Below the pieces are notes generated by a model, which was not told the DNA's origin, made no database searches, and saw only the letters and a program-made list of their open reading frames with translations. The position numbers and the translations under genes are program-made. A stretch of DNA of 60,043 nucleotides. Source: Candidatus Nomurabacteria bacterium (GTDB taxonomy: Bacteria > Patescibacteriota > Minisyncoccia > Phycocordibacterales > UBA9973). Below are positions 10,149 through 32,383 of this stretch, in pieces. The stretch is taken from positions 1 to 60,043 of the forward strand of contig CALRAE010000004.1 in the NCBI GenBank assembly GCA_943350445.1, read 5' to 3'. Every line of letters starts with the position of its first letter. Position 1 is the stretch's first letter.

Positions 10149-11729
10149 CTAGCTATTCACCTTTGGTCGATACTGTATCGCCTCGAGGATGTGGTTCGCC
10201 TCGACATCCGGAGAATTTTCGAGGTCAGCTATAGTGCGAGCAATTTTGATGACTCGATGGTAGGCACGGGCGGATAGGGCAAGACGTTCAGCGCTATCGT
10301 CTAGCACATCTCGCACGACTGTTTTGAGTTTTACCATCGTAGACAAATCTTTGGCATTCATTTCACTGTTAGTACTAATTTCTCTACCTAATTTTTTAAA
10401 TCTATTTTTCTGATTTTCCCGCGCGGTTATTACCCTCGCCTTAATCCTCTCACTCCTATCGCCGGTGCCCTCGCCCCCGAGCTTTTTATAATCAACATTG
10501 CCAACTGACACCCACAAATCAATGCGGTCCATGATCGGTCCAGATAATTTTCTTTTGTATCTATCCAAGTCAGACGGTTTACAAATGCAAGCCTTTGCTT
10601 TACTCCCAGCATTACCACAAGGACAAGGATTCATCGCTGCCACGAGAATAAAGTTCGATGGGAAGATGGCTGAGCCACGTGCACGAGAAATAGAGACGAT
10701 GTTGTCTTCGAGCGGTTGTCGCAGTGATTCTATTACACGTTTCTCAAACTCTGGAAACTCATCAAGAAAAAGAACTCCTCTGTGCGCAAGTGTCACTTCC
10801 CCCGGCTTTGGGAACGTTCCTCCTCCGATTAACGAAACATATGACGAAGTGTGATGCGGAGCACGAAATGGAGGAAAACAGATTAACTCACGGGTTAAAT
10901 TTCCCGCCACCGAGTGAATACCAGTTATTTCCAAAACTTCATCAGTATTCAAGTCCGGTAGTAATCCGGAAAAAACTCTCGCCAGCATCGTCTTGCCAGT
11001 TCCAGGCGGACCATACATGGCGATGTTGTGACCACCAGCGGCCGCTATCTCTAGCCCGCGTTTAGCGCCTTCTTGTCCACGAATATCAGAGAAGTCACCT
11101 ATCTTTGTTTCACGGGTGTAATTTATTTTTGTCTTTGGTTGAGCAATTATTTTCCTTCCCGACGCTCCGACTTTGTCGGAGGCCGGGATCCCGACTCGCT
11201 TAGACGTCGGGACATCAATATGCTCTATGACTTCTTTTAAACTACCAGCACCAAAAATCGTGATGCCTTCCACTAATGCCGCCTCAACTGCATTTTCTTT
11301 TGGCAAATAAATTTCTTTGAAGCCTTGCTTCTTGGCTTCCTGAACCAGTGGCAAAGAACCTCGAATACTTCGAAGTGTCCCATCGAGACCAAGTTCACCC
11401 AGAAAAATCTTCTTTTCTGAATTAAATTTAATATCCCCCGATGCTTTCAGGTATGCAATGGCAATAGCCAAGTCAAAAAACGGTCCTTCCTTTTTTAAAT
11501 CAGCCGGTGAAAGCGATACGATTATTTTTTGATTCTTTGCCTTTGGAGATTTGAAGCCAGAATTTTTTATGGCTCCGCTGACTCTGTCCTTGGATTCATC
11601 GACGGCTTTGTCCGGCAAGCCCACCACGTTAAAAGCATGAAGTGTGCCTTTTGTAATGTCCACCTCAATCGTCACAATAGTACCCACGAGTAGGTGCACT
11701 TGCGCTGAATATACTTTTGCAAAACTCAT
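10149..11729 (-). CDS. comM: YifB/ComM Mg-chelatase-like AAA+ ATPase
   Basis: VGLPDKAVDES, GPPGTGKT, PFRAPHH, LFLDEFPEF, AAMNPCPCG. Confidence 0.93.
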   Translation of the reverse strand: MSFAKVYSAQVHLLVGTIVTIEVDITKGTLHAFNVVGLPDKAVDESKDRVSGAIKNSGFKSPKAKNQKIIVSLSPADLKKEGPFFDLAIAIAYLKASGDIKFNSEKKIFLGELGLDGTLRSIRGSLPLVQEAKKQGFKEIYLPKENAVEAALVEGITIFGAGSLKEVIEHIDVPTSKRVGIPASDKVGASGRKIIAQPKTKINYTRETKIGDFSDIRGQEGAKRGLEIAAAGGHNIAMYGPPGTGKTMLARVFSGLLPDLNTDEVLEITGIHSVAGNLTRELICFPPFRAPHHTSSYVSLIGGGTFPKPGEVTLAHRGVLFLDEFPEFEKRVIESLRQPLEDNIVSISRARGSAIFPSNFILVAAMNPCPCGNAGSKAKACICKPSDLDRYKRKLSGPIMDRIDLWVSVGNVDYKKLGGEGTGDRSERIKARVITARENQKNRFKKLGREISTNSEMNAKDLSTMVKLKTVVRDVLDDSAERLALSARAYHRVIKIARTIADLENSPDVEANHILEAIQYRPKVNS

Positions 11730-11730
11730 A

Positions 11731-12087
11731 TTAACTTTCTAAATGTGTCTTACAAGTCAGAGCGGCAGGGTTGGCTTCTAGGCGGTCATTTTCGATATTT
11801 TTCTTACATACTTCACATTTCCCAAAAGATTCTTTATTCAAATTCTTCAGTGCTCTTAAAATATTATTTAACCGAGGCTCTAAAGTTTTCAGCATAGAAC
11901 TGCGGGCCTCAAAATCTTCAAATTTATCTGCTAGATCGTTTAGATCAGATTCTGGAAAATCAGACTTGGCTGGCATGGCTTCCCACTCACTTGTTTCTGG
12001 ATTAAGTTTACCCATATCACGAAGCTCTTCAATGAGTACATCCCGCTCTTTCTCTAATTGTTCTTTAATTTTTGCTTTGTTAGGCAT
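11731..12087 (-). CDS. TraR/DksA C4 zinc-finger protein
   Basis: GKCEVC...RLEANPAALTCKTH. Confidence 0.88.
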   Translation of the reverse strand: MPNKAKIKEQLEKERDVLIEELRDMGKLNPETSEWEAMPAKSDFPESDLNDLADKFEDFEARSSMLKTLEPRLNNILRALKNLNKESFGKCEVCKKNIENDRLEANPAALTCKTHLES

Positions 12088-12149
12088 ATTTCAATAATAA
12101 CACTTTAGGACTGGAGGGCAAGCCCAAACCCAAACTTTATGCTAAAATC

Positions 12150-13226
12150 ATGTTTACACACATGTTATACAAACACGACAATAATTACACAGTAGAAAGC
12201 GTGACTTCCGGACATCCAGACAAGGTCTGCGACCAAATTTCAGATGCTATTTTAGATGCGTATTTAGCTCTAGACCCAAAGAGTCGAGTTGCAGTTGAAA
12301 CCTTCGGCGGACACGGCAAGTTAGTCATCGGTGGTGAAGTCACCTCAAAAGGAGAAGTGGACTATGTAGAGATCGCTCGTGAAGTTTATAAAAATATTGG
12401 TTACGGAGATAAACTTGAAATATCTGCACATATCGTAACCCAATCCCCCGACATAGCTCTCGGAGTGGACACTGGAGGAGCTGGCGACCAGGGAGTAATG
12501 TACGGATTCGCAACAGACGAAACACCTGAATACTTACCAAAAGGTGTCGTCCTTGCTCACAAGCTTGCAAAAAAATTAGAAGAAGCGAGAAAGTCTGGAG
12601 AAATTGCTTGGTTGCGGCCTGATGGCAAAACACAAGTGACTTATGCTGATGGTAAATTATATACGGTCTTAGTCAGCACACAACACGCACCAGAAATTAA
12701 ATTAGAGGAAGTAAAAAAAGAAATTACAGAAAAAATTATATATCCCTTACTCTCAGAAACAGAAAAGAAAGATGTAAAAATAATCGTAAACCCGACAGGA
12801 AAATTCGTGGCTGGAGGCTTTGAAGCAGACACAGGCCTCACTGGCAGAAAAATAATGGTAGACACTTATGGTGGAATTATTCCACACGGTGGAGGATGTT
12901 TCTCTGGAAAAGATGCCACTAAAGTAGACCGTTCTGGGGCATATATGGCTCGTTTTGTAGCTAAAAATCTAGTGGCTTCCAGCTTTGGTAAGGAAGTGCT
13001 CGTGTCTGTGGCTTATGCCATCGGCATGGCTGAACCACTGATGATCGAAGCCATCAACGAAGACGGAAAAGACCTTTCTGAAATTGTTCGCAAGAATTTT
13101 GATTTCCGCCCTCTCGCCATTATTGAAAAACTTGGACTACGCAATCCGATCTTCCGCCAGACAGCCACCTACGGACACTTTGGTAAAGAGAATCTACCTT
13201 GGGAAAATATTGAGAAAATAAAGTAA
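12150..13226 (+). CDS. metK: S-adenosylmethionine synthetase
   Basis: ESVTSGHPDK, GAGDQG, GGGCFSGKD, YGHFG. Confidence 0.97.
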   Translation: MFTHMLYKHDNNYTVESVTSGHPDKVCDQISDAILDAYLALDPKSRVAVETFGGHGKLVIGGEVTSKGEVDYVEIAREVYKNIGYGDKLEISAHIVTQSPDIALGVDTGGAGDQGVMYGFATDETPEYLPKGVVLAHKLAKKLEEARKSGEIAWLRPDGKTQVTYADGKLYTVLVSTQHAPEIKLEEVKKEITEKIIYPLLSETEKKDVKIIVNPTGKFVAGGFEADTGLTGRKIMVDTYGGIIPHGGGCFSGKDATKVDRSGAYMARFVAKNLVASSFGKEVLVSVAYAIGMAEPLMIEAINEDGKDLSEIVRKNFDFRPLAIIEKLGLRNPIFRQTATYGHFGKENLPWENIEKIK

Positions 13227-13422
13227 ATTTCCTCTTATTTTAAGAAGCATCACTCGTGATCCAGATACATTAACAAAAATTCCAGATGATGCAGCTGGAC
13301 AAGAACGAATCCGCACTTTAAATAAACCAGATTTCCAAAGGCGCTTAGCAGAGCTAGCAATCAAACTGCGAAGAATAGAGAAGGTAAGGATGGCTCTCCT
13401 GGCAGAACTAAAACTATAATTT

Positions 13423-16444: not shown

Positions 16445-16595
16445 TTTGTTAGGCTCCCCTTCAGACTAAAGTATTGTTCCTGATTAACATCAGTTAGAAC
16501 AAAACTGCATGTCTGAAGATGAACGGATTAACTATTAATGTGCTTGTAATGCTAGCATTTTTAGAAGAAAAAGCAATGAAAAACCACGTTATTAA

Positions 16596-17105: not shown

Positions 17106-17124
17106 ATGTATATTGTAGCATTTT

Positions 17125-17264
17125 TAAAATTTGTCGCAGGCAAAAACTCTTTCTTGGCATAACTTTTTATAAAGCAATCTATCTGGCGCTGGTGCGCCAG
17201 CGAACTGCTCGGCGCGCCCGCCTGCGCAAGGCTTTCTAAAAAGTACGCCTGCGACGAGTTTTTA
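17125..17264. repeat. Long hairpin element, family B
   Basis: Arms tgtcgcaggc/gcctgcgacg and actttttataaagc/gctttctaaaaagt; inner hairpin ctggcgc-tggt-gcgccag; core ctcggcgcgcccgcctgcg. Confidence 0.75.
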
Positions 17265-17525
17265 AACGAGTTCAATCTTCTTCATCAAAGCGTTGTAGCG
17301 AGCTTTGCTTGTTCTCTCTAAATATTTCAAATGAGTACGTCGATCAGCCACCATCTTGATGAGGCCTCGGCGAGAGTGATTATCCTTTTTATGCTTTTTT
17401 AAATGCTTCGCTAATTCATCGATTGCGGCAGAAATAACAGCCACCTGCACCTCTGGAGAGCCTGTATCCTTGTCGTGAATCTGATTTTTCTTAATAATTG
17501 TCTGCTTTTTCTTGGTTGCTAACAT
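17262..17525 (-). CDS. rpsO: 30S ribosomal protein S15
   Basis: DTGSPEVQVA, HKKDNHSRRGL. Confidence 0.97.
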   Translation of the reverse strand: MLATKKKQTIIKKNQIHDKDTGSPEVQVAVISAAIDELAKHLKKHKKDNHSRRGLIKMVADRRTHLKYLERTSKARYNALMKKIELV

Positions 17526-17644
17526 GTGCATATATTAGCATAAACCACGGAAAAATGCAAGAAGTTAGCCAAAATTTGTTGTTTAGAAAGCCTTGCGCAA
17601 GGGTTCTAAAACATTACTTTTAGTTTTTGTGTTATCATTTTAGT

Positions 17645-18448: not shown

Positions 18449-18474
18449 AAAAAGTTTCAAAGTATATAAAAAGG

Positions 18475-18519
18475 AAAACCGCTCTTGCGAACGGAATTCC
18501 GTGCTTGAGCGGTTTTTTT
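18475..18519. terminator. Terminator between convergent genes
   Basis: aaaaccgctc...gagcggtttttt. Confidence 0.7.
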
Positions 18520-19889: not shown

Positions 19890-20002
19890 AATTTTTCAAC
19901 TCCTCATCTAGCCTCTTGGCCTCTACCCAAGCAAGCTCGTATATCTTTTTCATAGCGTCAGCTATTTCTGAGCTTGAAGGTTTCTTAAATAATTTTTACT
20001 TT

Positions 20003-20886: not shown

Positions 20887-22530
20887 TTACTTACGGACAC
20901 CGTGTTTAATATGCAATTTCGCCACTTCTTCTTCTTCGAGTTCTTCTTTTTTCTCTTTTCCTTTATCACCGAGCGCTTTGAGTTCAGCGTCAGAAAGTAA
21001 TTCAAAAGATTTCACTAATTCAGACAGGGCTTCTATTGTATTTTTCTCTGGATTCTCTAAGACAACTTCGAGGAGAGCGTTTAGCATCCATCCCATGCGT
21101 GGTCCAGGTTTGATGCCGAGATCTTTCATTAGAAAATTACCATCTATTTTAAGTTGCCCGACAGAGATCGGGTCTCTTAGGGCTTCTTCAATCATTGCGA
21201 AATATTTTCGCAGACGATACGGCGCTTCTTTCTTCTTCATCCCTACCCTATCACACTCACGAATGTTCATCAGGAGCCAAATATTTTCCACCCCGACTTT
21301 TGCAATGATTCTACGCACTGCGCTCAAAGTAATTAATTCCGTGTCAGAGAAAAACATATGATTGCGAACAAGCTTCTCCACCAGCTCAGTTTCTTTTTTA
21401 GGAAATTTGAGCCTCTCCATTATCTTTTTCGCCATTCGAGCGCCGACTACTTCATGACCATAAAAAGTATATTTTTTCTTGGAAGCAGGCACCTTCCCCG
21501 ACAAAAATTCGAGGAGTCGTGGGTCCCCTGTCCTATTGCCTCCGAGGGCGAAGGCGGGGGAATTTTTCGTCGGGGAAGGTTCTGCAAATCTCCTCGTTTT
21601 TGGTTTTCCAATATCATGAAAAAGGGCTGCGAGCCTTATCTCTAAAGGCCAATCTTTATCCGCTGCATGCTGTAGCGCATGGAGTAAATGATCCCACACG
21701 TCATAAATATGTTCACCGAGTTGTTCACAACCTATCCCCTCCTCAAGTTCTGGAATAATATTTTTAAGCAATCCAAATTTCTGCAACATCACGATTCCAG
21801 CTGCAGGATTTTTAGATATAATTATTTTTGTAAACTCATCACGAATTCTTTCTTCTGATATTTTTTTTATTAACTCAGAATTTTTCAAAATACTTTCCAT
21901 CGTTTCGTGAGAAATAGAAAAATCTAATTGGCAAGAAAAACGAACCGCACGAAGCATTCGAAGTGCATCTTCTGTAAAACGATCATCTGCATTCCCTACT
22001 GCTCTAATAGTCTTGTCCTTTATGTCCTTTAAACCGCCAAATATGTCCTTTATAGAGTTTTTCCCAGATAGGTTGAGCGCCATGGCATTTACCCTGAAAT
22101 CACGTCTCTGAAGGTCATCTTCGAGCTTTTCACTGAATTTAACCTCATCTGGATGCCTAAAGTCAGTGTATTTTGCTTCTATCCTGTATGGAGTAACCTC
22201 AACTATTAGATAGTTAGGTTCTAGTGTTTCTTGTGAAACATCACTTTTTAATGTTTCACGTGCAACATCCTCCTTTTTTGTTTCACGCGGAACGCACACC
22301 CCCACAGTCCCAAAGGTATTCTCGTATACAGTCTTTTCAAATAGCTTTATAATCTGGTCTGGTTTGGCATTCGTTGTCACATCCCAGTCCTTAGGAACCC
22401 TCTCCATTAGAAGATCTCGAACACAACCACCCACTAAATACGCCTCAAAACCCCCTTTTTCTAAGGTTTTGGTTACATGTGAAACTTCTTTAGGTATTTT
22501 TGATATTAAGTTTTGGTTTACAAGATCCAC
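20887..22530 (-). CDS. cca: CCA tRNA nucleotidyltransferase with HD domain
   Basis: YLVGGCVRD, DWDVTT, RRDFRVNA, EDALRMLRA, HDIGKP; start moved to GTG 22530 so it does not overlap the tRNA. Confidence 0.92.
   Translation of the reverse strand: MDLVNQNLISKIPKEVSHVTKTLEKGGFEAYLVGGCVRDLLMERVPKDWDVTTNAKPDQIIKLFEKTVYENTFGTVGVCVPRETKKEDVARETLKSDVSQETLEPNYLIVEVTPYRIEAKYTDFRHPDEVKFSEKLEDDLQRRDFRVNAMALNLSGKNSIKDIFGGLKDIKDKTIRAVGNADDRFTEDALRMLRAVRFSCQLDFSISHETMESILKNSELIKKISEERIRDEFTKIIISKNPAAGIVMLQKFGLLKNIIPELEEGIGCEQLGEHIYDVWDHLLHALQHAADKDWPLEIRLAALFHDIGKPKTRRFAEPSPTKNSPAFALGGNRTGDPRLLEFLSGKVPASKKKYTFYGHEVVGARMAKKIMERLKFPKKETELVEKLVRNHMFFSDTELITLSAVRRIIAKVGVENIWLLMNIRECDRVGMKKKEAPYRLRKYFAMIEEALRDPISVGQLKIDGNFLMKDLGIKPGPRMGWMLNALLEVVLENPEKNTIEALSELVKSFELLSDAELKALGDKGKEKKEELEEEEVAKLHIKHGVRK
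21491..21580. repeat. 90-nt in-frame hairpin element inside cca
   Basis: accttccccgacaaaaattc / gaatttttcgtcggggaaggt arms; encodes the PSPTKNSPAFALGGNRTGDPRLLEFLSGKV insert. Confidence 0.8.
22225..22294. promoter_or_regulatory. Three parS-like sites at 27-bp spacing inside cca
   Basis: tgtttcttgtgaaaca, tgtttcacgtgcaaca, tgtttcacgcggaacg vs consensus TGTTNCACGTGAAACA. Confidence 0.8.
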
Positions 22531-22540
22531 CTTAATTTTG

Positions 22541-22611
22541 TGCGGCCAGAGAGAATCGAACTCTCGTCTCATCCTTGGCAAGGACGTGTTCTACCACTAA
22601 ACCATGACCGC
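22541..22611 (-). tRNA. tRNA-Gly(GCC), CCA not encoded
   Basis: Cloverleaf GCGGTCA...TGGCCGCA; anticodon arm gtcct-tGCCa-aggat; GTTCGA T-loop. Confidence 0.95.
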
Positions 22612-22730
22612 AAAATTATTTTTAATCATTCAATTATATATTAAATTCAGCATATTGCAATTTTATATTCTGAGCTTATAAAATAACGTTATTTTACTAA
22701 AGATAAATATAATGTATAATTAAACATTAT

Positions 22731-22802
22731 GCACCCGTAGTGAAATGGATATCATACCCGCCTTCGAAGCGGTTGTTGGGGGTTCGAATCCCTCCGGGTG
22801 CA
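22731..22802 (+). tRNA. tRNA-Arg(TCG)
   Basis: GCACCCG...CGGGTGCA, anticodon loop ctTCGaa, GGTTCGAATCC. Confidence 0.95.
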
Positions 22803-22898
22803 CACGAAAGAGTAAATTTATTTACTCTTGTGAGGGTTTCGAAAGATTTTTTGTTATTTTACAAGATAAAATCAAAAAATACCTGGCCATGTAATGGC

Positions 22899-22918
22899 CG
22901 AATCCCTCCGGGTGCACA
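22899..22918 (+). repeat. 20-bp direct copy of the tRNA-Arg 3' end (att-like)
   Basis: cgaatccctccgggtgcaca identical to 22785-22804. Confidence 0.9.
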
Positions 22919-23117
22919 TCAGAAAGTTGTTCCAAAATTAATCATACCTGTCCTTTATTGAAACCTTATTAAATAATAGTTTTGTGTAAGAGTGTGGATA
23001 ACTATGTTGGTAATGTTTATAAAGGACATGTTTTATAATTGTCTTTTGGGGGGATTTTAACTAAAATATCTTGTGAGATAAGGATATTTTTATAAAAGAC
23101 ATCAAATATAGTACTTT

Positions 23118-23133
23118 TGTTTCACGTGAAACA
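23118..23133. promoter_or_regulatory. Perfect parS site; degenerate copies at 22471, 23144, 23250
   Basis: tgtttcacgtgaaaca is the canonical ParB-binding palindrome. Confidence 0.9.
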
Positions 23134-23185
23134 TATTTATTGCTGTTACTTGTGAAACGTTATAAAATATAGCTTTATAGTATAT

Positions 23186-23572
23186 ATGCCGAAAGTATTC
23201 ACCTCAGAAACTCAAAAAATAGGGGAAATAGGGGAGAATATAGCTGTAAAGTTTCTCATGAAACATGGTTTTGAGGTTTTAGACCGTAATTATACTAAAA
23301 AATGGGGTGAAATAGACATAGTGGCTCAAAAGGACACAAAAATTTACTTTATTGAGGTAAAAAGTATAAACGCCGAGATAGCAGGAGGGGAACATAGAGC
23401 CGAAGACAATATGCACCCGAGGAAATTGCAAAGACTAGCGCGAGTAATTCAGACATATCTTCTCTACAAGAAATGGTACGAGGGGGAATGGCAAGTTGAT
23501 TTATTGGTTATTTATTTAAATATGAAAAACAAAACTGCTCGAATAAAAGTAGTAAGTGATATTATTTTATGA
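23186..23572 (+). CDS. YraN-family (UPF0102) nuclease-like protein
   Basis: GEIGENIA, RNY...GEIDIVA, FIEVK. Confidence 0.92.
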   Translation: MPKVFTSETQKIGEIGENIAVKFLMKHGFEVLDRNYTKKWGEIDIVAQKDTKIYFIEVKSINAEIAGGEHRAEDNMHPRKLQRLARVIQTYLLYKKWYEGEWQVDLLVIYLNMKNKTARIKVVSDIIL

Positions 23573-23582
23573 TTCGAATCTG

Positions 23583-23653
23583 TGCGGGATAGGCGAATCG
23601 AACGCCTGCCAACAGTTTGGAAAACTGTAGTTCTACCACTAAACTAATCCCGC
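23583..23653 (-). tRNA. tRNA-Gly(TCC)
   Basis: GCGGGAT...ATCCCGCA; anticodon loop ttTCCaa. Confidence 0.95.
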
Positions 23654-23678
23654 TTATATAAAAACCTGTAAATAACGC

Positions 23679-23752
23679 TGGTCGGGCTGCTGGGAGTCGA
23701 ACCCAGCCTAAATGCTCCCAAAGCACTTGTACAACCGATATACTACAGCCCG
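23679..23752 (-). tRNA. tRNA-Pro(TGG), CCA encoded
   Basis: CGGGCTG...CAGCCCGACCA; loop ttTGGga. Confidence 0.93.
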
Positions 23753-23888
23753 TAGTTACGTTAACTGCGTTATTCTAACACAACAAATATAAATATTCTA
23801 GTAAAAACTAATTTTTAGTTTTTACACTCAAAAAAATTCATAGATTATCGAAATTTTAATATCTTGTGCTATTATTCAACCATAAACC

Positions 23889-24638
23889 ATGATAACCACA
23901 TACATATACACATTTGGAAGTATTCTGGTGGTCAGCCTTATTTCATTCATAGGAATTTTTACTCTTGCAATAAAAGAAGAAGTTCTTCGTAAATATATTT
24001 TTATATTCATCAGCATTGCTGTGGGCGCTCTTTTGGGCGATTCTTTTATACATTTAATTCCTGAAGCATTTGCAGATACGACTAACCAAGTTCTTACTAG
24101 TGTCCTAATAATTGCAGGAATACTTTTCTTTTTTATTCTAGAAAAATTTCTCCATTGGCACCACCACGGAGAAGACAAAGAGGACACACACATTCATCCA
24201 GTTGGAAAGTTGGTTTTGTTTTCTGATGGTGTCCACAATTTCATGGACGGCATGATCATAGCAGCGAGCTTCTTGGTGAGCATCCCTGTGGGACTAGCCA
24301 CGACTCTAGCTGTTATTTTACACGAAATACCTCAAGAAATAGGGGATTTTGCTGTGCTTTTACATTCTGGATATACAAAACAGAGGGCCCTCTGGCTTAA
24401 TTTTCTATCAGCCCTAACAGCGATTGCAGGTGCTATTGTGCTCTTTAGTCTAGGGGAGGTGGCAGAGGCATCAACATCTTGGTTTCTACCCATTGCAGCT
24501 GGTGGATTTATATATATTGCCCTTGCAGACTTGATACCTGAACTTCAAAAAACAAAAGAGGCTCGATATTCAATCATGCAGATACTCGCAGTCGTAGCTG
24601 GAGTCTTGGCGATGGTTGCTTTGACTTTTTTAGAGTAA
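23889..24638 (+). CDS. ZIP-family metal transporter
   Basis: HLIPEA, His-rich loop, DGVHNF, HEIPQEIGDF. Confidence 0.94.
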   Translation: MITTYIYTFGSILVVSLISFIGIFTLAIKEEVLRKYIFIFISIAVGALLGDSFIHLIPEAFADTTNQVLTSVLIIAGILFFFILEKFLHWHHHGEDKEDTHIHPVGKLVLFSDGVHNFMDGMIIAASFLVSIPVGLATTLAVILHEIPQEIGDFAVLLHSGYTKQRALWLNFLSALTAIAGAIVLFSLGEVAEASTSWFLPIAAGGFIYIALADLIPELQKTKEARYSIMQILAVVAGVLAMVALTFLE

Positions 24639-24736
24639 AAACATAAATAGCACAAAATTTTTTCTGTCCGAGGGATCCACCCTGTACTCAGGGAAGGGCG
24701 CAGGACAAAAAATTTTGTGCTATTTATGTTTTTACT
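24634..24736. repeat. Long hairpin element, family A (30-bp perfect arms)
   Basis: Arms 24634-24663 / 24707-24736; 37-nt core shared with 48006-48042. Confidence 0.9.
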
Positions 24737-24884
24737 TTTTAAAATTTTTAGTGGTCAGGAATAATTTTGTTTCCGTCAAAACAAAATTTTCACGACCCTG
24801 CCTCGCTTGTTTTCTTTACTAAGAAAACATAGCTGTGGCTCAAACTCAATTAGAAAAAACCCAAGCAGTTGGATTTTCTCTAAT

Positions 24885-26171
24885 TTAGTTTGCCCAACTC
24901 CAGTCAGTACCTGGATTTTTAGCGCTAAAAACTTCGAAGTGAATGTGCGGGCCAGTAGAACGTCCTGTATTACCGACATAGCCGATGATCTCACCACGAG
25001 CCACTGTTGATCCAGTCCTGGTGCCCAACCTAGACATATGCGCATAGAGGGTCTTCGTGCCATTTGGATGTTGTACGATTGCCATATTTCCATAACCTCC
25101 ACCACAACGTGTCTGCCCAACCCTACAACCAGTTTTAACTATAATAACTGTGCCGGATGCAGATGCGTATATAGGCGTACCCGTAGGCGCGCCTATATCT
25201 ATACCACGATGTCCAGGACCATGGAGACCTTGGGTTTTGTGTCCAGTAGGAACTGGGTTTATGAAAAATCCAGTAAGGTTTTGTATTGGATTAGCATCAT
25301 AATAATTCTTATCGCGAATCGGAGCGGAGCTCAAGTTTGAAGCTGGCTTGTCACCTCCTTCATCGGCCATGTCGCCACCAGGAACCATTATTTTGTCACC
25401 TATAGCTAGCTTACTATCAAATGCAATATCATTATAGAAAGCTATTTCACTCACATCTACCTTGTAAAGCTTGGCAATACTCTTTAATGTCTGCCCTTTG
25501 GCTACAGTATGCTCAAGTCCAGAAACAGGCAAAATAAAAAGCACGTCGCCTTCGACGAGCTTGTCACTTTTTTTCATATCATTCGCCCACAATATAGTAT
25601 TTGCAGAGACATCGAACATTTTGGCTATAGCAGAGATAGAATCACCCTTTCGAACCACATAGACACTAGTCTGCAGGGAAGATGGGTCCACCGCATCAGT
25701 GCCGTCTGAGACACCGAGGGGGCCTGTCGCCGGAAGCATGGCATTATCAGAGACGATATTAACATTTACACTAGTATTTATAGGCTCTTCTTTGCTTATA
25801 TCCTTTTTATTTTCCTTTTTCTCGATTACTTCTTGAAAAATAGAGGCTGAAGACACATTGGCCTGTAAAAGTGCCATAGTTTGGGAATTTTGAGGTAATT
25901 TATTATAAAGTTGAGTAGAATCTGTTGTGTTTGTTTGTGCATATGCCTCATCACCTAAAAAGGAAGATAGGAAGCCAGCGTTTGCTGGCAAGGGCTTTAT
26001 CATATAGGAAGCCGACAAGAAAAAGCCAAATAAAATGGAAAATACCAGAATAGAGCGGAATATGTTAAATAGTGATTTTATAAAACAATCTAAAGTATCG
26101 AAAGATTTCCTCTCTAACCCTTTTAAAATAAGGGTAGAATCGCAGGACGACCGAAATTGTACTGCAAACAA
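24885..26171 (-). CDS. LysM x2 plus M23 peptidoglycan endopeptidase (start uncertain)
   Basis: YVVRKGDSIS and HTVAKGQTL LysM repeats; HRGID, YAHM, STGPHIHFE. Confidence 0.92.
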   Translation of the reverse strand: MFAVQFRSSCDSTLILKGLERKSFDTLDCFIKSLFNIFRSILVFSILFGFFLSASYMIKPLPANAGFLSSFLGDEAYAQTNTTDSTQLYNKLPQNSQTMALLQANVSSASIFQEVIEKKENKKDISKEEPINTSVNVNIVSDNAMLPATGPLGVSDGTDAVDPSSLQTSVYVVRKGDSISAIAKMFDVSANTILWANDMKKSDKLVEGDVLFILPVSGLEHTVAKGQTLKSIAKLYKVDVSEIAFYNDIAFDSKLAIGDKIMVPGGDMADEGGDKPASNLSSAPIRDKNYYDANPIQNLTGFFINPVPTGHKTQGLHGPGHRGIDIGAPTGTPIYASASGTVIIVKTGCRVGQTRCGGGYGNMAIVQHPNGTKTLYAHMSRLGTRTGSTVARGEIIGYVGNTGRSTGPHIHFEVFSAKNPGTDWSWAN

Positions 26172-26395
26172 AGGTTCTCGCGACGGTTACTGTCTTCTCC
26201 ATCTTCCAGCCAGCTCATACCATACCTCTCTTCAGTGCTACCCCCATAGAATAGTTCAAAAAGGGTCAAAAGTCAATCTAGTTGGGGATAACGAGTGAAT
26301 AGCTAAAATTTGACAAGACTGTAAAAAAGGTGTATAATTGATAAATAGTCTTAAAAAAATTAGTGTTGAAAAATTAAAAACTATATAATATATTT

Positions 26396-27811
26396 ATGGA
26401 TACAGGACCACAAAATAATGAAGAGACAAATAGAATCGAAGCAGAACTAGAGGCAACGAAGTTGCAAGATGAACAAGCTAGAGCAGAAGGGAATCCACCA
26501 AGTAGTACGCCCACACCCCCTTTTTGGACAGAAACAAAGACAAAAATAGCGAAAATAACAGGCTTGACAGCGGCGACGGGTGTCGGTCTTTTCGGTGCTT
26601 ATAAAGGGACAGAAAAGGGAGCACAATTTGCAGGAGATAAGACTAGTGATTGGATGACCCCTAAAGCAAAAAATGTCCAACAAGTGCCCGCAAGACCAAA
26701 CATGAATCCTGGCTACACAAATAATGAACCAAATTTACCACTAATGGTAAATCCAGTTATAACACCCACAAATTCTACAGAATTTTCTAGAACCAATCTT
26801 CCTCCAGGCCTACCACCTTTAACACCACCATCCGTCAATACTAATAGTTTAGAAAGTGCTGTAACGGCTGCACTAGCTAGAGCAAATGCTGAATCAGCAA
26901 AGTTGAGGCAACAAGTAGAAGATGCAGCAGCCAAGCAAGCAGCACTAGAGAAAAAACATGCTGCGGCACTAGAAGAACAAGCAAAAATGTTTCGACGAGA
27001 AGTACAAATAGTACAGAATGTACAAACACCAATAGAAACAGTGGCACCAGAAAAAACCATAGAGCAAATGAAGGAGGAAAGGAGAGAAATGGAAGCACAA
27101 AAAAGAATGGCGGAAATAGAAGCAAGAAATACAGCAACAGAAGAAAATAATCGCAATGCCCCAGTAGGATACAAAATGGGATCTACAACAGAATTACCAC
27201 CACTTAGAGCTCCAGCAATGAATAAGGCTCCTACGCCAAAACCAACAGGGGTACAATTTAATACAAGGCCTGATGAAGGAGTAAAATTTAATGCCACCAT
27301 CACAGAAGCAAACAGAGAAGCAATAGTAAATGCAATACCGAGACCTCCAGTAGGAGTAAATGTCATAAGCAGAGGTATGGGTGGATACAATATAACCACT
27401 GCCCCAAATCCAGGCCCAGTAAATATTGCTACGGAAGCTCCAACCAACGTTAATGACGGAAACCCTTTCAAGTTATCACAAAAAGCACTTGAAGAAATCG
27501 AGGATATTTACGAAAGAAACTTGGTAAAAATTTTCCCTAAAAACACGCTAGGGAAGTGGATGAATATAAACAAAGAGAGCGCTTATGATTTTATGAGTAA
27601 ACCGAGAGAAAAAGTCCCGAAAGAATACGAACACATATTTACCACTGAAGAATATAAACGCCTCTGCACTTTCTTAGAGAAACTCAAGGTAACAACCGGT
27701 GAGCTTCCCAAGCTCGGTGCCTCTACTGGAAAGCCTGAAAGCATACAAGACTATATGAATAGAACGATGCAAAAAGCCGCATCACAAGGATTACTGTCTA
27801 AAATAAAATAG
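26396..27811 (+). CDS. Pro/Asn/Thr-rich hypothetical protein with coiled coil
   Basis: 471-aa ORF with promoter TTGACA-N17-TATAAT (26310-26338) and a terminator. Confidence 0.8.
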   Translation: MDTGPQNNEETNRIEAELEATKLQDEQARAEGNPPSSTPTPPFWTETKTKIAKITGLTAATGVGLFGAYKGTEKGAQFAGDKTSDWMTPKAKNVQQVPARPNMNPGYTNNEPNLPLMVNPVITPTNSTEFSRTNLPPGLPPLTPPSVNTNSLESAVTAALARANAESAKLRQQVEDAAAKQAALEKKHAAALEEQAKMFRREVQIVQNVQTPIETVAPEKTIEQMKEERREMEAQKRMAEIEARNTATEENNRNAPVGYKMGSTTELPPLRAPAMNKAPTPKPTGVQFNTRPDEGVKFNATITEANREAIVNAIPRPPVGVNVISRGMGGYNITTAPNPGPVNIATEAPTNVNDGNPFKLSQKALEEIEDIYERNLVKIFPKNTLGKWMNINKESAYDFMSKPREKVPKEYEHIFTTEEYKRLCTFLEKLKVTTGELPKLGASTGKPESIQDYMNRTMQKAASQGLLSKIK

Positions 27812-27847
27812 AAAAACAAAATATCCCGAAAGGGGTATTTTGTTTTT
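27812..27847. terminator. Intrinsic terminator
   Basis: aaaaacaaaatatccc-gaaa-ggggtattttgttttt. Confidence 0.85.
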
Positions 27848-27855
27848 ATGCTAAG

Positions 27856-29949
27856 ATGTTATCTGTGGAAGAACACTTAAAAGGATTAAATAGTGAACAA
27901 AAAATAGCAGCACTCCACAAGGATGGCCCGCTTCTTATTATTGCTGGCGCTGGCGCAGGGAAAACAAAAACTATCACGCACAGAATTGTAAATTTAATAA
28001 AAAATGGAGTCGCTCCAGAGAAAATTCTCGCCGTCACCTTTACCAACAAAGCAGCAAAAGAAATGCGAGAGAGAATCATCACAGAAATTGAGAAGAATGC
28101 AAAAGGACAAGAAAGGGTTCCTTTCGTTAGCACCTTCCACTCGCTCGGAGTTTACATTATTAAAGAAAACGCTCGACTGCTAGGGCTGACCAAGTATTTC
28201 ACTATTCTAGATGAAGGAGATGCCACAGGATTTATTAAAGACATATTAAAAGAGCTTGGAGTAGACCCAAAACAATACGATCCGAAGAAAATAAAAAGTG
28301 TAATCTCTCGCGAAAAAGGTAAATTTACCCATCTTACAGATTTTACAGAAAGGGAAGGAAACGGCTCGAACCCTTTTTCGAAAATAGTAGCACAGGTTTG
28401 GAATCTATATGAAAAACAAAAGATGAAAGAGAATTCACTCGATTTTGATGATCTACTTTTGAAAGCGACAAAACTCTTGAAAGACAACGTGGAAATCCGT
28501 AAAATGTATCAAGAAAAATGGGAGTACGTGCACATCGACGAGTATCAAGACACCAATGAGGTGCAGTATTTAATGTCGAAAATGCTAGCAGAAAAGAATA
28601 AAAATATCTGTGTGGTGGGAGATGCTGATCAAAATATTTATTCTTGGCGTGGAGCAAATCTGAAAAATATTTTAAATTTTGAAAAAGATTATCCGAATGC
28701 AAAAATAATTTTGCTCGAAGAGAATTACAGGTCGACCCAAAACATCCTAGAGGCTGCAAATGTGGTAATCAAAAAAAATAAATACCGCCCAGACAAAAAT
28801 TTATTTACAAAAAATGAAACCGGAGAGAAGATAGGATTGTACGAAGCACTCAACGAAGTAGATGAAGCAGACTTTGTAGCGACAAAGATTCTAGAAATAC
28901 GAGATGGAAGCTCCCCAGACTCTTTCTTTGCGGGGTCGCTGTCTCCGCGTGTTCGCGGAGCGCTGCCTCTCGGCTCGTCAGCCTGCGAGACACCCCTCAA
29001 AGAAAAGTCCGGAGAGCTTCCCAGCGACCCCGACAAGATAGAACCTGTTCTGCTGTCAGAAATATGCATCTTATATCGCGCGAACTTCCAATCACGAGCA
29101 CTCGAGGAAGCGATGCTCCGATACAACATCCCATACCAAGTCCTTGGTGTTAAATTCTTCGAAAGAAAAGAAATCAAAGATACTTTGGCATATTTGCGTG
29201 CAGCTTTAAACAGAGACAGCCTTTCCGATATAAAAAGAATTATAAATTTCCCAGCGCGAGGCATCGGCAAAGTCACGTTAGTAAAAATTTTTGCAAATGA
29301 AATAGAAAGCTTGCCACCCAAGGTAAGAATCAAAATAAATAGTTTCTATGAAACACTCGAAGAAATAAAGGAAAAAATTCATAGTACCAAAACAAGTGAT
29401 GTAATAAAATTCGTGGTGAAAAAGTCTGGAATTGAAGCAGAACTTTCTTCGGGGACTGAAGAAGATATAGAAAGACTTGAAAACATTAAAGAGTTAGCCA
29501 CTTTAGCACTTAAATATGATAATTTAGACGCCGGCCGTGGCATAGAAAAGCTTCTGGAAGATGCTTCACTAGCATCGGACCAGGACTCATTAATCGTGAA
29601 TGAGGAGAAATTAAAAGAAAAGAAAGAGATAAATGCAGTGAAACTTATGACTGTGCATGCTTCAAAAGGCCTCGAGTTTAAATACGTCTTTATCACTGGT
29701 CTAGAAGATGGCCTGTTCCCACATCAAAGACGAAGTGAGGACGTAAATATCGACACCGAAGAAGAGCGTAGACTATTTTATGTGGCGGTGACTCGTGCGC
29801 GAAGTAAATTATTTTTATCCTTCGCAGATTATCGGACTATTTTCGGCTCACGACAAATAAATGCTCCATCGGAATTTATTTCCGACATTCCAGCCGATTT
29901 ATTAGAGAAAGAAGGAGAGAAAGGAGGAATTAAAACTATTTACATCTAA
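27856..29949 (+). CDS. pcrA: UvrD/PcrA DNA helicase
   Basis: AGAGAGKT, TFTNKAA, DEYQDTN, VGDADQNIY, LMTVHASKGLEF, EERRLFYV. Confidence 0.96.
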   Translation: MLSVEEHLKGLNSEQKIAALHKDGPLLIIAGAGAGKTKTITHRIVNLIKNGVAPEKILAVTFTNKAAKEMRERIITEIEKNAKGQERVPFVSTFHSLGVYIIKENARLLGLTKYFTILDEGDATGFIKDILKELGVDPKQYDPKKIKSVISREKGKFTHLTDFTEREGNGSNPFSKIVAQVWNLYEKQKMKENSLDFDDLLLKATKLLKDNVEIRKMYQEKWEYVHIDEYQDTNEVQYLMSKMLAEKNKNICVVGDADQNIYSWRGANLKNILNFEKDYPNAKIILLEENYRSTQNILEAANVVIKKNKYRPDKNLFTKNETGEKIGLYEALNEVDEADFVATKILEIRDGSSPDSFFAGSLSPRVRGALPLGSSACETPLKEKSGELPSDPDKIEPVLLSEICILYRANFQSRALEEAMLRYNIPYQVLGVKFFERKEIKDTLAYLRAALNRDSLSDIKRIINFPARGIGKVTLVKIFANEIESLPPKVRIKINSFYETLEEIKEKIHSTKTSDVIKFVVKKSGIEAELSSGTEEDIERLENIKELATLALKYDNLDAGRGIEKLLEDASLASDQDSLIVNEEKLKEKKEINAVKLMTVHASKGLEFKYVFITGLEDGLFPHQRRSEDVNIDTEEERRLFYVAVTRARSKLFLSFADYRTIFGSRQINAPSEFISDIPADLLEKEGEKGGIKTIYI
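28906..29021. repeat. In-frame hairpin element (family B) inside pcrA
   Basis: ggaagctc..tctttg.gggg / cccc.caaaga..gagcttcc arms; 17 nt identical (inverted) to 46627-46643. Confidence 0.85.
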
Positions 29950-29966
29950 CATGTATAATTAGAAAT

Positions 29967-31517
29967 ATGAAAATATTTAACAAACAAATATTTTATGTGT
30001 TCAGTTCATTTCTGGCTGGATTTGCCATAATGACAATTGAGCTTATTTCTTCAAGAATAGTGGCCCCAATAATAGGATCTTCTGTTTTTACATGGACATC
30101 AGTAATAGGAATAACAATGCTGGGACTTGCTCTTGGTGGCTATATTGGCGGACAAATAGCAGACAAAAAAGAAGGCAGGGAAACACTTCCAATTATATTT
30201 CTAATTTCTTCAATACTTGTTTTCTTAATACCAATATTGGCAAAAAATACCGATTTTATTATAAATTCATCTACTTCCATATTAAAATTGAATTTATATT
30301 TATCCGTGTATCTTTTTCTATTACCGACATTCTCCATAGGACTCATTTACCCAATAATACTAAAACAATTTGTCAGCAATCTTTCATTAATTGGTAGTCG
30401 TTATGGCATACTATCGTTTGCTTGGTCAGGAGGGGGGATACTTGGTGTGTTTTTAACAGGATTTTTCTTTATATCAAATATTGGGAGCAGTGAAACACTT
30501 TGGCTTATGTCTATTGTACTGTTTTTAGTTGGAGGGATTTTTGCATTAGAAAACAAAATAAACAAAAAAACACTTTGGCTTTTTATATTAACAATAATTG
30601 TTACATCTATACTTTTTTATACAACTCAACAAAAAAAACAAAGCAAGAATATAATATTTCAAAAAGAAACAAACTATTACGATGCAAGGGTTATTGACGC
30701 ATATCTTCCACTATATGAAAATTCAAGAATTTTAATGCTAGATTTTGATTTTCACAGTATTGAATCAAAAAAAGTGGTGCAAAATTACCCAACTATATAT
30801 CCAGTTTTTGCTAATCTAAAAAGTAATATAGAGAGAATATTAGTAATAGGTGCTGGAGCATATACTCTGCCGAAATATTTTAAAAATTATTATAAAAATT
30901 CAGATATTTCAGTTGTAGAAATAGATCCTGAGATGATAAATATTGGTGAAACTTTTTTTGATCTAAAAAAATACGACATAAAAACAATTGCAGGGGATGC
31001 CAAAATAGTAATAAAGAAAAACAAAGAAAAATATGATGTAATTTTTGGTGATTCTTATAATTCATTTATTTCTGTTCCTTGGTATCTCTTAACTAAAGAA
31101 TGGAATGAGCAAGTAAAAGAAAAATTAACTGAAAACGGGGTATACGCTATAAATTTTATCGGATCTCTGAATGGAAACAAATCAGAATTTACAAAAAGTG
31201 TTTTAAATACTTTTAAAATTAGCTTCCCGAATTTTTACATCTTTGCATTCGGAGAAAATCTAGAACATGCTCAAAGTATTGTATTACTAGGAGTAAAAGG
31301 AGAGCTACCCATAAGTGAACAAGGGCTTCAACAGAAATTGTCAATTGGGGAAAACGATTTTTTGGCAAATAAAATAATTCCGGCTGCATTTTTTAAAAAT
31401 ATACCATCTATAATACTCACAGATAATTTTTCACCCATTGAAAAACTGATGGAGCCCATGATAAAAGATTATTTTCCAAAAAATCTAGCCCAGCTTAAAA
31501 AAGTATTATTACCATGA
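29967..31517 (+). CDS. Fused membrane domain / spermidine synthase-like SAM-binding protein
   Basis: ~7 TM helices then ILVIGAGAY, VVEIDPEM, YDVIFGD, ILTDNFSP. Confidence 0.88.
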   Translation: MKIFNKQIFYVFSSFLAGFAIMTIELISSRIVAPIIGSSVFTWTSVIGITMLGLALGGYIGGQIADKKEGRETLPIIFLISSILVFLIPILAKNTDFIINSSTSILKLNLYLSVYLFLLPTFSIGLIYPIILKQFVSNLSLIGSRYGILSFAWSGGGILGVFLTGFFFISNIGSSETLWLMSIVLFLVGGIFALENKINKKTLWLFILTIIVTSILFYTTQQKKQSKNIIFQKETNYYDARVIDAYLPLYENSRILMLDFDFHSIESKKVVQNYPTIYPVFANLKSNIERILVIGAGAYTLPKYFKNYYKNSDISVVEIDPEMINIGETFFDLKKYDIKTIAGDAKIVIKKNKEKYDVIFGDSYNSFISVPWYLLTKEWNEQVKEKLTENGVYAINFIGSLNGNKSEFTKSVLNTFKISFPNFYIFAFGENLEHAQSIVLLGVKGELPISEQGLQQKLSIGENDFLANKIIPAAFFKNIPSIILTDNFSPIEKLMEPMIKDYFPKNLAQLKKVLLP

Positions 31518-32383
31518 AAGCAAAAAAATCACTCGGGCAAAATTTCCTAAAATCAGAAGTCGCTCTGCGACAGATTGTGGAAGCGGGAGAAATAAAACCT
31601 GACGATATTATTTTAGAAATAGGGCCGGGAAAGGGGGCACTGACGGAGAAGCTTTTAGAGAAGGCAAAAATGGTGATAGCGGTAGAAAAAGACTATGAAC
31701 TTATTTTCTTTCTAAAAGAAAAATTCGCCGAACAAATAAAGTCGGGGGCACTTATTTTAATACAAGGAGATATTTTAGAATTTAGTGTTAACAAAACAGT
31801 TCTGGAACTTTTTTCAGGTCCTCGGTTCCCCGGGTCCCTCTCCCGGCCAGACCATGCAAAAAGCTCAGAACTGTTTTGTTATAAGCTAATCGCAAACATC
31901 CCATACAACATCACTGGTGCAATTTTGAAAAAGTTTTTAACAGAAGAAAACCAGCCAGAGAGGATGGTGCTAATGGTGCAACACGAAGTCGCGACTAGAA
32001 TTTTGGCTCGTAACGGCAAAGAAAGTATTTTATCTATCTCGGTTAAAGCATATGGCACCCCAAAAATGGTCGCAAAAGTTGATAAAAGATATTTCAGCCC
32101 AGCTCCCAAGGTGAATTCAGCAATCATTGCCATAAAAAATATTTCAAGAAAGAATTTTACAGAAAATATGGGGAGTCGCGCTTTAATGGACGGTGCGCGA
32201 CATGATTTCGCTAAATCAGAAGAAAGGTTTTGGGGAATAGTCAAAGCAGGCTTTGCCCATAAGAGAAAAAAGCTCTCTGGCAACCTAAAAGACATATGTC
32301 AAAGACCGTCTTTGACACCTTATGAAAACAAAAGAGCCGAGGATTTGTCCTTAAAAGATTGGATTATCTTAAGTAGGGGATAA
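31514..32383 (+). CDS. rsmA: 16S rRNA adenine dimethyltransferase RsmA/KsgA
   Basis: KKSLGQNFL, LEIGPGKGALT, ANIPYNIT, F.PAPKV.S. Confidence 0.96.
   Translation: MKAKKSLGQNFLKSEVALRQIVEAGEIKPDDIILEIGPGKGALTEKLLEKAKMVIAVEKDYELIFFLKEKFAEQIKSGALILIQGDILEFSVNKTVLELFSGPRFPGSLSRPDHAKSSELFCYKLIANIPYNITGAILKKFLTEENQPERMVLMVQHEVATRILARNGKESILSISVKAYGTPKMVAKVDKRYFSPAPKVNSAIIAIKNISRKNFTENMGSRALMDGARHDFAKSEERFWGIVKAGFAHKRKKLSGNLKDICQRPSLTPYENKRAEDLSLKDWIILSRG
31789..31881. repeat. 93-nt in-frame hairpin element inside rsmA
   Basis: 16-bp perfect arms taacaaaacagttctg/cagaactgttttgtta around a GC-rich core. Confidence 0.85.

What the first reader, a model, noticed from the sequence alone, without database searches (positions are those of the whole stretch)
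11157..31881. Hairpin elements inserted in-frame in core housekeeping genes (Rickettsia RPE-like)
Seen: GC-rich inverted-repeat blocks coincide with peptides that interrupt conserved proteins: comM 11157-11212 (VPTSKRVGIPASDKVGASG), cca 21491-21580 (90 nt, just after HDIGKP), pcrA 28906-29021 (~39 aa, before ILYRAN) and rsmA 31789-31881 (93 nt, before ANIPY). All keep the frame. Known: such coding palindromes are described in Rickettsia and a few other taxa. Inference: the elements add surface loops, or are removed at RNA level.
Basis: partly seen in the sequence, partly recalled or inferred. Interest (0 to 1): 0.8.

Follow-up and report, generated by a model that had tools for sequence, protein, structure and literature searches.

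The report
In-frame hairpin repeats in CPR genes
A tiny-genome lake bacterium of the Candidate Phyla Radiation carries families of small GC-rich hairpin repeats, about half of them sitting in frame inside essential genes as extra protein loops, much like the palindromic elements of Rickettsia but built differently.

Summary
All four hairpins exist at the stated coordinates and fold far better than shuffles. Three (cca, pcrA, rsmA) are clear insertions relative to most orthologues. The comM one lies in a length-variable linker and is not a clean indel.

The organism is a 617-kb Patescibacteria (Paceibacterota/Nomurabacteria-like) genome. The elements belong to at least seven repeat families. 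Each copy has a conserved GC-rich unit of about 55-120 nt, closed by a short A/T-rich inverted repeat. That unit sits inside a longer palindrome whose arms differ at every locus.

In this genome 12-13 of the 26 copies in families A-D lie inside genes, and all of those are in frame. None of the 13 copies between genes splits a gene. Family A occurs in 30 of 101 genomes of the genus and family B in 42 of 101.

The same protein loops carry different families in sister species. Arms covary between orthologous copies. An AlphaFold model places the RsmA insert in a low-confidence loop.

Best reading: selfish, translated, RPE-like mini-palindromes whose stems are made or maintained by fold-back copying. 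Abundant Y1 (RAYT-like) transposase genes are an unproven candidate mobiliser. Removal at RNA level is not supported, but no RNA data were available.

The parts
11157..11212 (-). Family F double hairpin inside the comM linker (peptide VPTSKRVGIPASDKVGASG). comM ORF is 10149-11729 (-).
   Evidence: Fold z -5.8. Orthologous copies in comM of G100 and G110, and similar units at non-comM loci in G005, G055 and G062. The linker length is variable, so there is no clean indel.
21489..21582 (-). Family B element in cca (ORF 20887-22581, -), in the HD domain between HDIGKP..RRFA and SKKKYTFYGHE. Conserved unit 21503-21568; outer arms are locus-specific.
   Evidence: Absent in 16 of 23 orthologues. Orthologous copies with covarying arms in 5 other species.
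28906..29047 (+). Family C element in pcrA/uvrD-type helicase (ORF 27856-29949, +), before ILYRAN. Conserved unit 28923-29009; two overlapping arm pairs.
   Evidence: About 47 extra aa against 7 of 10 orthologues. Second copy in tgt (C2:47130), same frame. Orthologous copy in G013 pcrA.
31789..31881 (+). Family A element in rsmA (ORF 31514-32383, +), between GDILEF and YKLIANIPY. Conserved unit 31806-31864; 16-bp perfect locus-specific arms.
   Evidence: Absent in 12 of 19 orthologues. Low-pLDDT loop in the model.
24626..24744 (.). Family D element between convergent ORFs 23889-24638 (+) and 24885-26171 (-). Unit 24657-24715; arms about 34-38 bp.
   Evidence: (I1). G013 has a family G element at the orthologous site.
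47974..48073 (.). Family D element between genes. Unit 47995-48053; 29-31 bp perfect arms.
   Evidence: (I3).
17122..17266 (.). Family G element between genes. Its left arm is an imperfect inverted copy of the element's own conserved right end.
   Evidence: I15. A 120-nt stretch is 95.8% identical to a copy at a non-orthologous site in G013; sequences. A related strain's contig replaces 17120-17272 with 35 other letters.
46591..46706 (.). Probable further element between convergent ORFs. 23-bp arms; the spacer holds a 17-mer shared with the family C core.
   Evidence: I6; 17-mer hit 46627-46643; nhmmer E 0.01, weak.

Best explanation
These are copies of small, selfish palindromic repeats, at least seven families in this Paceibacterota-like genus. 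The conserved unit is a GC-rich imperfect hairpin of about 55-120 nt closed by a short A/T-rich inverted repeat (family A: CTTTTTATCA...core...ATTCTAAAAAG). Units land both between genes and inside genes. Inside genes, only copies that keep the frame in tolerant loops survive. They are then transcribed and translated as extra, probably disordered, G/P/S/R-rich loops, as with Rickettsia RPEs. Around each unit the DNA is palindromic for a further 10-34 bp, with a sequence unique to the locus. I infer that these arms are produced and kept complementary by fold-back (template-switch) copying of one side onto the other, so the hairpin extends itself and mutations in one arm are copied to the other. 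The same permissive sites are occupied again and again by different families in sister species. Shown: repeat families, architecture, in-frame state, indel status, arm covariation, site recurrence, and cores more conserved than their flanks. Inferred: translation of the insert, the fold-back origin of the arms, and mobility on single-stranded DNA. Speculative: mobilisation by the RAYT-like Y1 HUH transposases that are abundant in the genus.
For: Organism: record titles of the best PcrA relatives. Completeness 99.6%. Core versus arms: own-genome blastn matches only the cores. Family A copies in G000 and in 12 other genomes share a 37-nt core plus A/T closure, but each has its own stem. Census by nhmmer: A 11, B 6, C 2 (+1 weak), D 7 copies. 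Coding status: 12 of these 26 lie well inside ORFs and 1 at an uncertain 5' end. All are open in frame. The 5 between-gene copies that exactly fill gaps between co-directional ORFs are flanked by complete, unrelated genes. Insert-bearing orthologues are all read through in one frame: rsmA 5 plus 2 intermediate, cca 7, ligA 9, mnmA 13, pcrA 2. Distribution: family A in 30 of 101 genus genomes, with 0 hits for the reversed control, and in 0 of 297 genomes of other genera of the class. Family B in 42 of 101. Arm covariation: in six orthologous cca copies the arm helix is 95.8% paired, and 6 of 20 pairs changed on both sides. 4 of 500 shuffles reach that, and slid controls give 0-3. The G000 and G013 mnmA copies show the same pattern by eye. 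Fold-back: the left arm of the window's family G element is an inverted copy of the element's own conserved right end, and the G013 copy lacks it. Mobility: the family G unit is 95.8% identical between G000 and G013 at non-orthologous sites, while flanking genes are 72-80% identical. Site recurrence: G013 has family C in rsmA, family E in cca and family D in ligA, where G000 has A, B and A. G108 has family A in rsmA and twice in pcrA. Loop location. Y1 genes: two in G000, above the Pfam cut-off, and in 79 of 101 genus genomes with up to 14 matches each.
Against: No RNA or protein data, so translation of the inserts is inferred from frame conservation only (one search listed no RNA holder). The origin of the arms is unresolved. 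In ligA and cca the extra length relative to empty orthologues roughly equals the core plus both arms. Arms at the same site also differ completely between G000 and G013. So they are not simply converted native flanks. In rsmA and mnmA the extra length is close to the unit alone. The link to Y1 is weak. The two G000 genes are not flanked by cores. G013 and G108 carry elements but gave no Y1 match at E 1e-10. 26 of 30 family A-positive genomes have a Y1 match, against 53 of 71 family A-negative genomes. The RAYT NCBIfam model scores 34-39 bits, below its cut-off of 80. Strong core conservation and covarying arms could equally reflect function. My expectation that intergenic arms are longer was not borne out by an MFE-based count (median 28.5 pairs coding versus 21.5 intergenic, p 0.10). 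Gapless arm lengths do lean that way.
Confidence: 0.68

Rival explanations
1. The conserved cores are functional structured motifs, on RNA or DNA, selected at each locus. They could be a protein-binding handle on a stable hairpin, acting as terminator, mRNA stabiliser or processing site between genes, and tolerated or used for translation pausing inside genes.
For: Cores are much better conserved than the flanks (95.8% against 72-80%). In mnmA, G000 and G013 differ at 2 of about 53 core positions but at about 4 of 22 arm positions. Stems are kept by compensatory change. There is covariation inside the family A inner stem, CCGGG/CCCGG to CTGGG/CCCAG. Between-gene copies sit tightly at gene ends, some between convergent genes, with A/T runs at the stem base.
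Against: Many orthologous sites are empty in sister species, and different families replace one another at one site. That fits dispensable, interchangeable elements. No Rfam family matched. Core-internal helices did not covary in the cca set (helices 5 and 6). Copy numbers vary from 0 to more than 8 per genome.
Confidence: 0.17
2. The elements are removed or skipped after transcription, by an intron-like or RNase III plus ligase route or by translational bypassing as for the byp elements of Magnusiomyces, so the proteins lack the inserts.
For: Each element is a very stable hairpin that brings its two borders together. Bypassing of palindromic inserts is known in a yeast mitochondrion (mentioned in PMC6649704, discussion section read).
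Against: Every genic copy examined is a multiple of three in length and stop-free. That covers 12-13 copies in G000 and 36 clearly insert-bearing orthologues plus 2 intermediate rsmA ones across five genes. Removal would not demand this. No copy with a broken frame was found splitting a gene. RtcB and the tRNA-intron endonuclease were not found in G000, while control genomes were positive.
Confidence: 0.05
3. These are not mobile elements at all. They are variable loops that drifted into palindromes locally, or metagenome assembly artefacts.
For: comM is only a variable linker with little net length change. The genome is a MAG of 15 contigs.
Against: Near-identical cores occur at unrelated loci and in dozens of independently assembled genomes. 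Contigs of other runs reproduce the cca and pcrA element regions without differences: record 11 of X4 covers 21188-21750, and record 23 of X5 covers 28677-29333.
Confidence: 0.03

Closest known systems
Rickettsia palindromic elements (RPEs)
   Same: Multi-family palindromic repeats. A large share are inserted in frame in unrelated housekeeping genes, each family encoding a conserved peptide, in a small reduced genome. The insert is predicted to lie outside the fold core. RPE features are taken from passages of PMC10969869.
   Different: RPEs are about 150 bp according to the review passage. That they are conserved along their whole length is recalled, not from a call. Here only a 55-120-nt unit is conserved and the outer 10-34-bp arms are unique to each locus. 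Arms are kept complementary, whereas RPEs were described as losing repeat identity (PMC6649704 discussion). The host is a CPR bacterium, not an alphaproteobacterium. Sequence relatedness to RPEs was not tested.
Coding palindromes in Nematomorpha mitochondrial genes (PMC6649704)
   Same: Locus-specific, near-perfect inverted repeats inside translated genes. Active maintenance by template switching or repeat conversion was proposed (discussion section read).
   Different: Those have no shared repeated core, and both arms encode conserved native protein. Here a mobile conserved core sits at the tip and the hairpin is mostly extra sequence.
REP/REPIN elements with RAYT (Y1 HUH) transposases; IS200/IS605 and their miniature derivatives
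   Same: Short GC-rich imperfect hairpins in many copies. Y1_Tnp genes are present, and their best NCBIfam match is the REP-associated tyrosine transposase. A single-strand hairpin mechanism would suit hairpin units. REPIN and RAYT papers were seen only as search listing and abstract starts (PMC3116915, PMC5581495, PMC6006769).
   Different: REPs are extragenic; half of these are genic. In REPINs the conserved part is the stem, while here it is the tip. RAYTs are typically single-copy (PMC5581495 abstract start); here there are up to 14 matches per genome. No cores flank the Y1 genes in G000.
Classical bacterial MITEs (ERIC, Correia, Nezha and others)
   Same: Small non-autonomous repeats with terminal inverted repeats, sometimes giving in-frame fusions (PMC10969869 passage).
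   Different: No direct target-site duplication was noticed. The flanks form inverted, not direct, repeats. No parent IS with matching ends was identified.

Membership tests
Rickettsia palindromic elements (RPE) | Multi-copy palindromic repeat families | tested here: met
   nhmmer finds A 11, B 6, C 2, D 7 copies in G000. Hairpin folds.
Rickettsia palindromic elements (RPE) | Frequent in-frame insertion in unrelated ORFs, with a family-specific peptide | tested here: met
   12-13 of 26 copies are genic and in frame. Family B gives KNSPxFALGDKRTGD in pheS, mnmA, cca and leuS. Family C uses the same frame in tgt and pcrA.
Rickettsia palindromic elements (RPE) | Whole element (about 100-150 bp) conserved between copies | tested here: not met
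   Only the 55-120-nt unit is shared. Outer arms share nothing between copies (matches mostly span query positions 19-83 of 102).
Rickettsia palindromic elements (RPE) | Sequence homology to described RPE families, or occurrence in Rickettsiales | not tested
   No RPE sequences were at hand. The host is Patescibacteria. No Rfam hit.
REP/REPIN-RAYT system | RAYT-type Y1 transposase encoded | tested here: inconclusive
   PF01797 scores 32.5 and 28.3 bits, above the cut-off of 23. NF047646 scores 34.5 and 39 bits, below the cut-off of 80.
REP/REPIN-RAYT system | Repeats flank the RAYT gene; RAYT is single-copy | tested here: not met
   No cores in the flanks of either G000 gene. Up to 14 matches per genome in the genus.
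REP/REPIN-RAYT system | Extragenic location | tested here: not met
   About half of the copies lie inside ORFs.
Classical MITE | Terminal inverted repeats plus direct target-site duplication | tested here: inconclusive
   Short A/T-rich closures act as terminal inverted repeats. The flanks are inverted repeats. Direct duplications were not searched for systematically.
Translational-bypass (byp-like) or intron-like inserts | The insert interrupts the frame and must be skipped or removed | tested here: not met
   All genic copies are in frame and stop-free. RtcB and EndA were not found.
Nematomorpha-type coding palindromes | Both arms encode conserved native protein; no shared core | tested here: not met
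   The hairpins are extra relative to empty orthologues and carry repeated cores.

The most novel reading that the evidence does not exclude
This is a new class of self-extending hairpin elements in CPR bacteria. A small GC-rich unit moves as single-stranded DNA, possibly through the expanded RAYT-like Y1 HUH transposases. It lands preferentially where a palindrome already exists or existed, which would explain why the same protein loops and intergenic spots are re-used by different families. It then grows and proof-reads its own stem by fold-back copying. The result continually rewrites surface loops of essential proteins in genomes otherwise thought to be minimal and static.
Probability: 0.3. 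Interest if true: 0.8.

Novelty: new variant of a known kind. Interest (0 to 1): 0.66.

Why it matters
Coding palindromic repeats have been a curiosity of Rickettsia and a few organelles. Here the same phenomenon appears in an unrelated reduced lineage, a 617-kb CPR genome. It comes with a distinct architecture (conserved tip, locus-specific stem) and with repeated re-use of the same loops in DNA ligase, PcrA, CCA-adding enzyme, RsmA, MnmA and others across sister species. That gives a natural system for asking three things: how palindromes arise and are maintained in coding DNA, how much insertion essential enzymes tolerate, and whether Y1 HUH enzymes drive this. It also matters in practice. 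Such inserts inflate protein lengths and can mislead annotation and alignment of CPR genomes. I found no paper describing this in the held library.

Tried and rejected
RNA evidence: the look-up of sequencing runs listed no RNA holder, so whether the inserts stay in the mRNA is untested.

DNA contigs of four lake-metagenome runs: one X4 contig joins 21474 to 21599 across the cca element ("between: not known"). One X3 contig replaces 17120-17272 with 35 letters. Neither gave exact empty-site borders.

Captured-spacer idea (arms copied from phage DNA): two long arms gave 0 exact matches in IMG/VR. This is a weak test, using exact matches for two arms only.

Arms copied from elsewhere in the genome: no other matches in G000.

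Known RNA families: none at gathering score over the whole window. With E up to 1 over 21400-32000, none hit the cca, pcrA or rsmA elements. The only sub-threshold hits were spurious plant miRNA and IRES models on the 24626-24744 hairpin.

Longer arms in intergenic copies: not supported by the MFE pair count.

Co-occurrence of Y1 genes with family A: no clear association.

Native hairpins at empty mnmA sites: some AT-rich weak hairpins were seen but were not tested against controls.

Supplements of papers were not consulted.

The counts over 101 genus genomes include one genome flagged as unpublished (G071). It contributes one row to each tally and nothing else.


Full report
**The observation.**
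The window is contig C4 of a 616,971-bp, 15-contig genome with 38% G+C, scored 99.6% complete. Pfam confirms the four host genes:
- comM-type Mg-chelatase ATPase, 10149-11729 (-)
- CCA-adding enzyme with HD domain, 20887-22581 (-)
- UvrD/PcrA helicase, 27856-29949 (+)
- RsmA, 31514-32383 (+)

All four stretches fold much better than dinucleotide shuffles, with z from -3.5 to -6.9 and 0 of 200 shuffles as good. Genome-wide there are 55 hairpins with arms of at least 12 exact bp and a 20-130-nt spacer, against 3-11 in ten shuffles.

**The organism.**
The closest PcrA relatives are MAGs titled Candidatus Paceibacterota and Nomurabacteria, at 71-74% identity. The host is therefore a Candidate Phyla Radiation (Patescibacteria) bacterium. 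DNA runs holding the sequence are lake-water metagenomes.

**Are they insertions?**
I aligned orthologues from up to 30 relatives.
- RsmA: 12 of 19 have an 8-13-aa linker between DILxF and YKIIANIPY, where the window has 32 aa. Five have other long inserts at the same place and two are intermediate.
- CCA: 16 of 23 have no insert between HDIGKPxxRR and KKYTFYGHE, and 7 have other inserts there.
- PcrA: 7 of 10 lack the roughly 47 extra residues. L001 and L002 have their own inserts there.
- ComM is different. The element lies in a linker of roughly 14-23 aa in most of the 23 orthologues (shorter in a few), and is 22 aa here, so no clean indel can be called.

The same double hairpin is nonetheless present in comM of G100 and G110. 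Similar units occur at unrelated loci in G005, G055 and G062.

**What the elements are.**
Searching each element against its own genome matched only the central GC-rich part. Family A (rsmA type) has 11 copies, B (cca type) 6, C (pcrA type) 2 plus a weak one, and D 7. Families E, F and G were seen in relatives, in comM and at 17122-17266.

In every family A copy, in this genome and in 12 other genomes, a 37-nt core and a short T-rich/A-rich closure are conserved. A further stem of roughly 10-25 bp has a different sequence at each locus. Family B behaves the same way: most of its matches in other genomes span only positions 19-83 of the 102-nt query.

This tip-conserved, stem-unique layout is the main structural difference from RPEs, REPINs and ordinary MITEs.

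**Coding copies.**
Of the 26 copies in families A-D, 12 lie well inside long ORFs and one lies at an uncertain 5' end. The named hosts, identified from their sequences or by Pfam, are:
- PheS
- Tgt
- MnmA
- CCA-adding enzyme
- PcrA
- RsmA
- a HolB-like protein
- LigA
- LeuRS

Three more ORFs also carry copies. All are open in frame, and copies of one family in different genes often use the same frame (KNSPxFALGDKRTGD four times). Other frames and the opposite orientation are also used in relatives.

The other 13 copies sit in short intergenic gaps. The five that exactly fill gaps between co-directional ORFs are flanked by complete, unrelated genes. So I found no copy that breaks a gene.

Across five genes, 36 clearly insert-bearing orthologues, plus two intermediate rsmA ones, are each read through in one frame. 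RtcB and the tRNA-intron endonuclease were not found.

This pattern is what selection on a translated insert predicts. It is not what removal at RNA level predicts. No RNA run was available to test this directly.

An AlphaFold model of RsmA has mean pLDDT 86.4. Confidence drops to 53-55 over residues 101-120, between strands 80-84 and 124-128. That is consistent with a flexible surface loop just ahead of the NIPY motif.

**Distribution and mobility.**
- Family A (up to 3 mismatches) occurs in 30 of 101 sampled genomes of the genus, with no hits to the reversed control.
- It occurs in none of 297 genomes from other genera of the class.
- Family B occurs in 42 of 101.
- A 120-nt family G unit is 95.8% identical between G000 and its nearest relative G013 at non-orthologous sites. 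Neighbouring genes are 72-80% identical.
- The family C core in pcrA is 93.5% identical to the copy in G013's rsmA.

**Recurrent use of the same sites.**
G013 is 78-93% identical in these proteins.

| Gene | G000 | G013 |
|---|---|---|
| rsmA | family A | family C |
| cca | family B | family E |
| ligA | family A | family D |
| mnmA | family B | family B |
| pcrA | family C | family C |

In rsmA, cca and ligA the arms are also entirely different.

G006 has family A in cca. G108 has family A in rsmA and twice in pcrA. The ligA zinc-finger loop is occupied in 9 of 23 relatives and the mnmA loop in 13 of 22. Intergenic sites behave alike.

Two explanations remain open. Either few sites tolerate insertion, or occupied and once-occupied sites attract new elements.

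**The arms.**
Six species share an orthologous family B copy in cca. Its arm helix is 95.8% paired, and 6 of 20 pairs changed on both sides. Only 4 of 500 shuffles reach that, and slid controls give 0-3. The G000/G013 mnmA pair shows several compensated differences in the arms and only 2 differences in about 53 core positions.

So the arms are inherited and kept complementary. They are not hypervariable, which means each new copy must acquire its arms at or soon after insertion.

One case shows how this can happen. The window's family G copy has a left arm that is an imperfect inverted copy of the element's own conserved right end, and the G013 copy lacks it.

I therefore favour fold-back or template-switch copying, the mechanism discussed for quasi-palindrome correction and for the nematomorph coding palindromes (PMC6649704, discussion read).

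The length bookkeeping is not uniform. In rsmA and mnmA the extra length is close to the unit alone. In cca and ligA it is close to unit plus arms. The origin of the first arm in those cases is unexplained.

**A possible mobiliser.**
G000 encodes two diverged Y1_Tnp proteins (211 and 227 aa) with the HUH motif. Their only NCBIfam match is the REP-associated tyrosine transposase, below its cut-off. The family is in 79 of 101 genus genomes, with up to 14 matches each.

Y1 enzymes act on hairpins in single-stranded DNA, which would suit these units. That statement rests on established knowledge of IS200/IS605 and RAYTs; the papers were seen only as listings.

The evidence here is against a tight link:
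- No cores flank the G000 genes.
- Some element-bearing genomes gave no match.
- There is no clear co-occurrence with family A.

**Verdict.**
The finding is real and mostly as described. It is best filed as a new variant of the coding palindromic repeat known from Rickettsia, in a new phylum and with a distinctive architecture and site behaviour. I found no description of it in the held literature.

Noticed in passing
G000 C13:164-847 (+) and C5:11617-12240 (-); loci L216 and L215: Two RAYT-like Y1 HUH transposase genes sit in a 617-kb genome. A short fragment resembling the N-terminus of a third lies just upstream of the C13 copy. The family is expanded to as many as 14 matches in sister genomes.
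   Followed up: partly
window 55524-55644, 57723-57876, 56021-56140, 54772-54896: Further long inverted repeats (arms 25-33 nt, spacers 55-102 nt) listed by the repeat finder. They were not assigned to a family.
   Followed up: no
window 22541-23752: Cluster of four tRNA genes just beside cca. The cca ORF as listed overlaps the first tRNA by about 40 nt, so its true start is probably downstream of 22581.
   Followed up: no
L246 (G000 C9:21795-23455): The release-factor ORF next to a family A copy matches only positions 95-194 of the PCRF domain. This could mean a prfB-type frameshift or a short N-terminus.
   Followed up: no
L245 (G108 C2:105500-112500): In G108 rsmA and pcrA are adjacent and together hold three family A copies. 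The neighbouring 708-aa ORF has no Pfam family.
   Followed up: partly
L088 (G008 rsmA): This RsmA orthologue has a second small insert (PSGLTPWVR) after FLSGEN, a different site from the window's.
   Followed up: no
L244 (G013 C2:27990-28140): At the site orthologous to window 17122-17266, G013 has a 25-bp perfect hairpin with a 28-nt loop that is not GC-rich. It is a palindrome without a recognisable core.
   Followed up: no
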